64,000 nt of DNA, from the NCBI RefSeq assembly GCF_009931435.1, contig NZ_CP043414.1, one strand, 5' to 3'. Numbering within the stretch: the first letter of the stretch is position 1; each line of letters starts with the position of its first letter. This DNA is from Escherichia coli (GTDB lineage: Bacteria > Pseudomonadota > Gammaproteobacteria > Enterobacterales > Enterobacteriaceae). Both the position numbers and the translations under genes were made by a program. Below, in pieces: positions 4,880 through 5,270 of this stretch. The notes under the pieces were generated by a model, which worked only from the letters and a program-made list of their open reading frames with translations, was not told the DNA's origin and ran no database searches.

Positions 4880-5270
4880 AGAATCATATGCAGCAACCAA
4901 GTTGCTTAAGCAATGTTTCCATATGAGTTAAAAGATATTTTATCTCACGATTGCATATTTTTAGTGAAGATTAATTTATCCTCACCAACATCATAGTAAT
5001 TGCGTATTATCGCCTCATTGATAAAGCCCTATTTTGTATAAAATGCGCGGGCGGCACTAAAATCGATATGGCTAGAGATCTCTACTAAAAGTAGTCTTGC
5101 GTGATTGGGACAGGTCAAGAAAAAGCAGTTTTGCAGTTTTTTATTTCAGGGCGCAGTTGCGAAAATTGAATACCGTATGGACTAATGTGAGAAAATTCCG
5201 AGGTACGACTGTTTTGATATAGTGGACAATCAAGCGTCTCGAATTAACAATGAATTTCAGGTGCCAAGCC

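What the first reader, a model, noticed from the sequence alone, without database searches (positions are those of the whole stretch)
4880..5270. No pptA-like ORF found next to yddH
I recall a roughly 77-aa tautomerase gene (pptA) adjacent to yddH in K-12. No ORF of that size or an MPHIDIK... start is present in 4880-5270, which is AT-rich non-coding DNA, so the island boundary here differs from K-12.
Basis: established knowledge. Interest (0 to 1): 0.25.

Follow-up and report, generated by a model that had tools for sequence, protein, structure and literature searches.

The report
pptA lost beside yddH, common allele
This E. coli strain really does lack the small tautomerase gene pptA next to yddH, but this is an ordinary, widespread structural variant (about 12% of complete E. 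coli genomes, including CFT073 and Nissle 1917). In it, accessory DNA at the edge of a toxin-gene island overwrote most of pptA.

Summary
There is no pptA ORF or PptA-like coding sequence at 4880-5270 or anywhere else in the 64-kb window.

The stretch is not plain non-coding DNA. It is built from gene wreckage:
- 4884-4925 (-): a decayed 13-codon remnant of the pptA 3' end.
- 4945-5100 (-): the last 51 codons of a GNAT acetyltransferase gene, with an in-frame stop.
- 5104-5106: the scar of a 463-bp deletion.
- 5107-5270: a spacer leading to a putative orphan EndoU-toxin immunity gene (5271-5906).

Beyond that lie a dead ISAs1 copy (6109-7400) and a VgrG/Rhs type VI effector island.

pptA converging on yddH is the ancestral arrangement; E. 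fergusonii and E. marmotae both keep it. The same yddH-remnant-GNAT junction occurs in 660 of 5426 complete E. coli genomes, and about 227 of those also carry the 463-bp deletion. Intact pptA is present in about 4078 genomes. Other strains lost pptA independently through ISAs1 or IS1.

Verdict: a real but ordinary, already well-sampled polymorphism at a variable island edge. Interest is low.

The parts
4310..4879 (+). yddH (flavin reductase family), intact, 189 aa; the conserved anchor gene
   Evidence: ORF list and translation. It is 90.7% identical to K-12 yddH, with 22% divergence at third codon positions. Annotated yddH in matching genomes.
4884..4925 (-). Decayed 3'-terminal remnant of pptA (13 codons plus stop: METLLKQLGCCI*, against K-12 MEALIKKPGYSMNA*). 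Pro-1 and the whole catalytic domain are missing.
   Evidence: The K-12 BLAST HSP runs through yddH to 4925. The remnant aligns collinearly with the pptA 3' ends of K-12, TCM3e1, AR_0015, E. fergusonii and E. marmotae. Local alignment score is 22, against a shuffle mean of 14.2 (sd 2.2); 16 of 2000 shuffles reach it. The remnant is shared almost base for base with CFT073, MLI114 and LP5-1.
4945..5100 (-). 3' fragment (residues 105-155 plus stop) of a GNAT family N-acetyltransferase gene; pseudogene with an in-frame stop codon at 5029-5031
   Evidence: tblastn of the intact 155-aa GNAT of strain LP5-1 (L017:3021-3488) gives 47/51 identities, E = 3e-27, with one internal stop. The intact protein hits PF13508 and PF00583 above cut-off.
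5104..5106 (.). Junction of a 463/464-bp deletion that removed the 5' two-thirds of the GNAT gene and its upstream region (about 3 bp of overlap between the two flanks)
   Evidence: L015 (CP053258), LP5-1 and CFT073 carry the extra segment between the points that match window 5106 and 5104. About 227 of the 660 carrier genomes keep only the first 153-162 bp of the gene, as the window does.
5107..5270 (.). Spacer between the GNAT deletion scar and the stop codon of the next gene; no feature detected
   Evidence: No Rfam match at E <= 1. No terminator-like site, and promoter-like sites are below the shuffle expectation. Only 22-62-aa ORFs.
5271..5906 (-). 211-aa ORF (240 aa if started at 5993) of a small enterobacterial family with no Pfam or NCBIfam match; putative orphan immunity gene against an EndoU-type toxin
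   Evidence: No Pfam or NCBIfam hit. Only 18 homologue clusters, all Enterobacteriaceae. Homologues start 17 bp after an EndoU_bacteria (PF14436) toxin gene in a Pseudocitrobacter PAAR/DUF2169 cluster, and after an EndoU fragment in Shigella flexneri. No EndoU sequence is present in the window.
6109..7400 (-). ISAs1-family element (H-rpt, ydcC-like), 96.4% identical to K-12 H-rptE. The transposase frame has 3 stop codons and a 1-bp deletion, so the element is inactive. It forms the right edge of the block that differs from K-12.
   Evidence: BLAST to L001:9673-10965. End alignment. PF01609 hit. Stops and indel.
7563..14488 (-). Context: a VgrG (12344-14488), Rhs (8025-12277, split into two ORFs) and 149-aa downstream ORF (7563-8012) type VI effector island. 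The 4926-6108 block is its distal end.
   Evidence: Pfam hits: Phage_GPD/Gp5_trimer_C for VgrG; RHS_repeat, DUF6531 and RHS for the two Rhs ORFs. K-12 homology resumes at yncH/yncG from 14520.

Best explanation
pptA is absent because this strain carries an old, common structural allele of the yddH-proximal edge of the yncH-yddH type VI (VgrG/Rhs) effector island.

In an ancestor that had the normal convergent pptA/yddH pair, AT-rich accessory DNA replaced the pptA promoter and the first ~190 bp of pptA. That DNA carried a GNAT acetyltransferase gene and at least one toxin-immunity-type gene. The replacement was an illegitimate (non-homologous) join at window 4925/4926 and left only ~42 nt of the pptA 3' end.

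The allele then spread among E. coli lineages by homologous recombination in the flanks, and it has since decayed. In the window's version a 463-bp deletion removed most of the GNAT gene, the remaining fragment acquired a stop codon, and an ISAs1 copy (now dead) forms the far edge at 6108/6109.

The consequence is that the strain makes no PptA tautomerase from this locus, while yddH keeps its full length.

Shown: absence of pptA, the two remnants, the deletion, the shared junction, and the ancestral state. Inferred: the order of events and the recombination mechanisms.
For: - **Absence.** tblastn and motif search are negative.
- **Remnant.** Collinear homology reaches 4925. Its ~30% divergence from K-12 is in line with the 22% third-position divergence of the adjacent yddH.
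- **Ancestral state.** pptA converging on yddH, followed by nhoA, is kept in E. fergusonii and E. marmotae. PptA is widespread in Citrobacter, Klebsiella, Raoultella and Kluyvera.
- **GNAT gene.** It is intact in LP5-1, 67 bp from the yddH stop. The window holds its last 51 codons.
- **Deletion.** A 463-bp deletion relative to L015, LP5-1 and CFT073.
- **Population counts.** The junction-spanning query (4840-5060) matches 660 of 5426 genomes at >=80% coverage, including CFT073, 536 and ATCC 25922; UTI89, Nissle 1917 and 042 are among the same 660 carriers found with the GNAT query. pptA with its upstream region is present at >=80% coverage in 4078 genomes.
- **Recombination.** yddH alleles do not group by pptA state: LP5-1 (pptA lost) differs from K-12 (pptA present) at 16 of 540 sites but from the window at 47.
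- **Island context.** VgrG, Rhs and ISAs1. The lineage-to-lineage turnover of the DNA beyond the Rhs core resembles the published Rhs tip-displacement picture (PMC2935791).
Against: - The remnant is short (about 45 nt) and only ~70% identical to known pptA alleles. On its own it is modestly significant (16 of 2000 shuffles), and its weight rests on exact collinearity with the yddH stop.
- No repeat, IS end or target duplication marks the 4925/4926 join, so the mechanism of the original replacement is inferred.
- The rest of the source genome was not available, so a second pptA copy elsewhere cannot be excluded.
- The immunity role of ORF 5271-5906 rests on gene neighbourhood in two other genera only.
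Confidence: 0.88

Rival explanations
1. pptA was never at this site in this lineage: the window shows the ancestral arrangement, and K-12 gained pptA later.
For: About a quarter of complete E. coli genomes lack a full pptA region. The remnant is short and diverged.
Against: E. fergusonii and E. marmotae have pptA converging on yddH-nhoA, and Citrobacter has yncG-pptA nearby. The window keeps a collinear pptA 3' remnant directly after the yddH stop.
Confidence: 0.03
2. pptA is not lost but relocated, or present as a diverged copy elsewhere in the genome outside the window.
For: Only 64 kb of the genome could be examined. In the survey a few genomes have two pptA places, and 16 places are on plasmids.
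Against: There is no PptA-like sequence anywhere in the window. pptA is single-copy in nearly all genomes (median 1 place). 767 genomes give no match at all to the K-12 pptA region, enough to contain all 660 junction carriers. That count is consistent with loss but is not proof.
Confidence: 0.05
3. pptA was removed here by an ISAs1-mediated adjacent deletion, as in some other strains, rather than by replacement with accessory DNA.
For: ISAs1 lies 1.2 kb away (6109-7400). In strain 3385 an ISAs1 end directly abuts a 65-bp pptA remnant, and in fS149a an IS1 does. In MLI114-type strains ISAs1 abuts window position 5520.
Against: The window's breakpoint (4925/4926) is not next to an IS end. Strains with the same junction but no ISAs1 at all exist, such as LP5-1 and CP053258. 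The junction therefore predates and is independent of the ISAs1 copy.
Confidence: 0.04
4. The interval 4880-5270 encodes an unrecognised functional element (a small protein or sRNA) that took the place of pptA.
For: It is conserved at 93-97% among carriers. It contains ORFs of 41 and 62 aa.
Against: There are no Rfam matches, no terminator-like sites, and promoter-like sites are below expectation. Most of it is accounted for as gene remnants and a deletion scar. The conservation is no higher than in the flanking DNA.
Confidence: 0.03

Closest known systems
K-12 MG1655 locus ydcC(H-rptE)-pptA-yddH-nhoA (b1460-b1463)
   Same: Same flanking genes in the same order and orientation: yddE, nhoA, yddH and narVWYZ on one side, and an ISAs1/H-rpt copy with an Rhs element on the other.
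   Different: K-12 has an intact 77-aa pptA overlapping yddH by 4 bp, with ISAs1 88 bp upstream. The window has only a 42-nt pptA remnant and 1183 bp of unrelated AT-rich DNA between yddH and ISAs1.
The same locus in E. coli CFT073, ATCC 25922, UTI89, Nissle 1917, 042 and LP5-1 (the pptA-less allele)
   Same: Identical yddH-remnant-GNAT junction at 95-97% identity.
   Different: LP5-1 has the intact 155-aa GNAT gene. The B2 strains have a full-length but interrupted copy, annotated as a 71-aa hypothetical protein. The window and about 227 genomes, including 042, have the 463-bp deletion. What lies beyond 5106 differs between lineages.
Rhs loci with displaced C-terminal tips and orphan toxin/immunity modules (Jackson et al. 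2009, PMC2935791; orphan modules are from established knowledge of Rhs/CDI systems)
   Same: A GC-rich Rhs core is followed by AT-rich variable DNA, small unannotated ORFs and H-rpt/ISAs1 copies, and the content differs from strain to strain.
   Different: The block at 4926-6108 contains no recognisable rhs core fragment or toxin tip. Its link to Rhs is positional only.
PptA/YdcE, a 4-oxalocrotonate tautomerase family enzyme (PDB 1GYJ/1GYX/1GYY)
   Same: Only the last 13 codons are recognisably related.
   Different: There is no ORF, no N-terminal Pro-1 and no Tautomerase domain, so this is not a member but a relic.

Membership tests
PptA / 4-oxalocrotonate tautomerase family (Pfam PF01361) | An ORF of about 60-77 aa beginning Met-Pro (catalytic Pro-1) that matches the Tautomerase domain | tested here: not met
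   K-12 PptA matches PF01361 (E = 1e-16) and PDB 1GYJ. The window gives no tblastn hit better than E = 0.53, has no MPHxDIK motif in six frames and has no suitable ORF.
PptA / 4-oxalocrotonate tautomerase family (Pfam PF01361) | Position: convergent with, and abutting, the 3' end of yddH | tested here: met
   A collinear 13-codon remnant at 4884-4925 lies directly after the yddH stop. It is a relic, not a gene.
GNAT N-acetyltransferase superfamily (PF00583 / PF13508) | Full ~155-aa domain including the acetyl-CoA-binding motif A (Q/R-x-x-G-x-G/A; RQGVGH at residues 84-89 of the LP5-1 protein) | tested here: not met
   The intact LP5-1 protein passes the PF13508 and PF00583 cut-offs. The window holds only residues 105-155, with an in-frame stop; motif A is deleted.
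ISAs1 family insertion sequence (H-rpt) | An element of about 1.3 kb encoding a DDE_Tnp_1 transposase in one open frame | tested here: not met
   1292 bp, 96.4% identical to K-12 H-rptE, with a PF01609 hit. However, the frame has 3 stops and a 1-bp deletion. It is a member by descent but inactive.
Cognate immunity protein of an EndoU-type polymorphic toxin | Gene placed immediately downstream of, and co-oriented with, the toxin domain gene | tested here: inconclusive
   Homologues (63% and 53% identity) start 17 bp after EndoU_bacteria genes in Pseudocitrobacter and Shigella. In the window no EndoU sequence is present, so at best it is an orphan copy.
Cognate immunity protein of an EndoU-type polymorphic toxin | Binds and neutralises the toxin | not testable with these tools
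   Needs co-expression or competition assays. There is no sequence match to solved structures (best E = 0.1).

The most novel reading that the evidence does not exclude
The gene that sits where pptA's neighbourhood used to be (5271-5906) belongs to an undescribed family of immunity proteins against EndoU RNase toxins delivered by type VI secretion. It would be kept here as an orphan 'defence-only' gene at the island edge, so the pptA-less allele may persist because it protects against neighbours' toxins.
Probability: 0.4. Interest if true: 0.3.

Novelty: already known. Interest (0 to 1): 0.08.

Why it matters
It matters little beyond correct annotation. pptA belongs to the ancestral Escherichia gene set but is not core within E. 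coli: a full copy is seen in about 75% of complete genomes. Its loss here is a by-product of turnover at the edge of a type VI effector island.

For annotation, 4880-5270 should be labelled as a pptA remnant plus a GNAT pseudogene fragment, not as empty intergenic DNA. For users of PptA or YddH as markers, or in metabolic models, B2 strains such as CFT073, UTI89 and Nissle 1917 carry this same pptA-less junction.

The only mildly interesting lead is the small uncharacterised protein family next door, which neighbours EndoU toxins in other genera.

Tried and rejected
- **Search for pptA.** tblastn at permissive settings (word size 2, E up to 100) and a six-frame motif search for PptA in the whole window found nothing.
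- **Search for a functional element in 4700-6300.** Rfam at E <= 1 gave no match. The promoter/terminator scan found no terminator and fewer promoter-like sites than the shuffles.
- **Search for repeats at the breakpoints.** No repeat, IS end or target duplication explains the 4925/4926 join. One 16/18 inverted repeat (4925-4942 / 5514-5531) coincides with two breakpoints; I judged it probable chance in AT-rich DNA.
- **Search for an EndoU toxin remnant upstream of ORF 5271-5906.** None in the window, in L015, in LP5-1 or in the E. albertii locus.
- **Family searches for that ORF.** Pfam, NCBIfam and PDB sequence searches gave nothing. The 'aminopeptidase' label in some records has no support from these searches.
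- **ISAs1-mediated deletion as the cause of pptA loss here.** Rejected, because carriers of the same junction exist without ISAs1.
- **A divergent source species.** Rejected: the yncE side is 97.7% identical to ordinary E. coli and 100% identical to strain 2020CK-00188. The low identity on the yddH side reflects a locally mosaic, highly polymorphic region.
- **Literature.** The only paper mentioning both genes lists pptA-yddH among the convergent gene pairs of K-12 that it identified as overlapping ('excludon') pairs from RNA-seq coverage (PMC12288877). I found no paper describing the polymorphism itself.

Full report
**Observation**

The window carries yddE (2301-3194, +), nhoA (3290-4135, -) and yddH (4310-4879, +, 189 aa). 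In K-12 MG1655 the annotated order is ydcC (ISAs1/H-rpt), 88 bp, pptA (+, 77 aa, MPHIDIKCF...), then yddH (-) converging with a 4-bp overlap, then nhoA and yddE. In window orientation pptA should lie on the minus strand immediately after the yddH stop.

It is not there:
- tblastn of K-12 PptA against all 64 kb gives only chance hits (best E = 0.53, none in the region).
- A six-frame motif search is empty.
- The ORFs of 20 aa or more in 4880-5270 are 22-62 aa and unrelated to PptA.
- GC of the interval is 37.3%, against 49.5% for the window.

**What the interval really contains**

BLAST of the K-12 locus shows collinearity from narY through yddH up to window 4925, that is, 46 nt past the yddH stop. 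On the minus strand, 4884-4925 reads METLLKQLGCCI*. It aligns column for column with the pptA 3' ends of K-12, of other E. coli, of E. fergusonii and of E. marmotae (...MEALIKKPGYSM...).

The remnant is only about 70% identical to those alleles. Taken alone it is modestly significant: 16 of 2000 shuffles reach its score. It is, however, in exact register with the yddH stop. Its divergence also fits neutral decay, because yddH itself differs from K-12 at 22% of third codon positions.

Next, 4948-5100 (-) encodes residues 105-155 of a GNAT N-acetyltransferase (47/51 identical, E = 3e-27) with an in-frame stop at 5029-5031. That gene is intact (155 aa) in strain LP5-1, where it ends 67 bp from the yddH stop. 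The intact protein passes the Pfam cut-offs for PF13508 and PF00583.

At 5104-5106 the window lacks 463-464 bp that LP5-1, CP053258 (L015) and CFT073 possess. The missing piece is the 5' two-thirds of the GNAT gene and its upstream region. The remaining 5107-5270 is spacer, with no Rfam match, no terminator-like site and no excess of promoter-like sites.

**Surroundings**

- **5271-5906 (-).** A 211-aa ORF (240 aa from an upstream ATG) with no Pfam, NCBIfam or PDB sequence match. It has only 18 homologue clusters, all from Enterobacteriaceae.
- **Its likely role.** In Pseudocitrobacter faecalis the 63%-identical homologue starts 17 bp after an EndoU_bacteria toxin gene in a DUF2169/Tox-PAAR cluster. 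In Shigella flexneri a 53%-identical homologue likewise follows an EndoU fragment. The window has no EndoU sequence. The ORF is best read as a putative orphan immunity gene; this is an inference from gene neighbourhood.
- **6109-7400.** An ISAs1 copy 96.4% identical to K-12 H-rptE, but with three in-frame stops and a 1-bp deletion.
- **Beyond ISAs1.** A 149-aa ORF, an Rhs gene (8025-12277, split into two ORFs), and VgrG (12344-14488). K-12 homology resumes at yncH/yncG from 14520.

The 1183-bp block 4926-6108 (32% GC) is therefore the distal end of a type VI effector island. It occupies the place of the 273 bp that K-12 has there.

**Ancestral state**

pptA converging on yddH, followed by nhoA, is kept in E. 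fergusonii and E. marmotae. Citrobacter has yncG-pptA close to a yddH-like gene. PptA is widespread in Enterobacteriaceae. Together with the remnant, this makes the window's state derived.

**Population frequency**

| Query | Genomes matched, of 5426 complete E. coli |
|---|---|
| K-12 pptA plus its 88-bp leader, >=80% coverage | 4078 |
| Junction-spanning query 4840-5060, >=80% coverage | 660 |
| GNAT gene DNA, any match | 660 |
| GNAT gene DNA, >=80% coverage | 433 |
| GNAT 3' 153-162 bp only, as in the window | about 227 (660 minus 433) |
| Whole 1183-bp block, >=80% coverage | 193 |

The junction query's listed hits include CFT073, 536 and ATCC 25922; UTI89, Nissle 1917 and 042 are listed among the 660 carriers of the GNAT DNA. 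In the B2 strains the full-length GNAT copy is interrupted and annotated as a 71-aa hypothetical protein. Strain 042 is among those with only the 3' fragment.

pptA has also been lost independently:
- In strain 3385 an ISAs1 end abuts a 65-bp K-12-type remnant.
- In strain fS149a an IS1 lies next to yddH.

yddH alleles do not sort by pptA state. LP5-1 (pptA lost) differs from K-12 at 16 of 540 sites, but from the window at 47. The whole yddE-yddH stretch is unusually mosaic. This is consistent with the allele moving between lineages by homologous recombination.

**Mechanism (inferred)**

A single old replacement joined GNAT-bearing accessory DNA to the pptA 3' end by illegitimate recombination. 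No repeat or IS end marks the join. Strains with the same junction but no ISAs1 exist, which excludes ISAs1 as the cause here. Later steps in the window's lineage were the 463-bp deletion, a nonsense mutation in the GNAT fragment, and arrival and decay of ISAs1 at 6108/6109. The lineage-to-lineage turnover of the DNA beyond the Rhs core resembles the published Rhs tip-displacement picture (PMC2935791), although the block itself holds no rhs fragment.

**Consequence**

No PptA is made from this locus. PptA is a 4-oxalocrotonate tautomerase family enzyme with solved structures 1GYJ, 1GYX and 1GYY; from established knowledge, its physiological role is unknown. yddH is intact. One paper (PMC12288877) lists K-12 pptA-yddH among the convergent gene pairs it identified as overlapping ('excludon') pairs from RNA-seq coverage. 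That convergent partner is gone here. I did not test whether this alters yddH expression.

**Verdict**

The feature is an ordinary, already heavily sampled structural polymorphism. The only correction of substance is that the 'non-coding' DNA consists of a pptA relic, a GNAT pseudogene fragment and a deletion scar. Not tested: whether pptA exists elsewhere in the source genome.

Noticed in passing
window 8025-12277 (-), frame change near 9300: The Rhs gene is split into a 1022-aa and a 431-aa ORF. The reading frame shifts at the conserved ...YDSQH|RLVFYTR... stretch, so the main Rhs effector is either a frameshifted pseudogene or carries a sequencing error.
   Followed up: partly
window 6109-7400 (-): The ISAs1/H-rpt copy next to the block is 96.4% identical to K-12 ydcC. 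It has three in-frame stop codons and a 1-bp deletion at about 6205, so it is a dead IS.
   Followed up: yes
window 4925-4942 and 5514-5531: A 16/18 inverted repeat has one arm exactly at the pptA breakpoint and the other at position 5520, where ISAs1 abuts in MLI114-type strains. This is probably chance in AT-rich DNA.
   Followed up: no
window 1-4925 versus 14600-20400: The yddH-narY side is only 91-96% identical to any complete E. coli genome, while the yncE-pqqU side is 97.7% identical to most. The closest strain, 2020CK-00188, is 100% identical on the yncE side but 96.8% on the yddH side. The window's genome is therefore a local mosaic around the island.
   Followed up: partly
L015 (CP053258.1) 5881-8663 and L017 (LP5-1) 3781-6563: Some E. 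coli strains have no VgrG, Rhs or ISAs1 between yncG and yddH. Instead they carry a run of five or six small unannotated ORFs plus the GNAT gene, which looks like a toxin-less array of orphan immunity-type genes.
   Followed up: no
L009/L010 (strains TCM3e1, AR_0015) and L021 (E. marmotae): In these genomes an alkyl/aryl-sulfatase gene lies directly upstream of pptA, where K-12 has ISAs1. In most non-K-12 strains pptA is 75 aa and does not overlap yddH, so the 4-bp overlap is a K-12-type allele feature.
   Followed up: partly
L002 (strain 2017-02-2CC) 3775-4965: The genome closest to the window across the yddH side has an extra DUF4303 gene inserted between narI and yddE. The window lacks it.
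   Followed up: no
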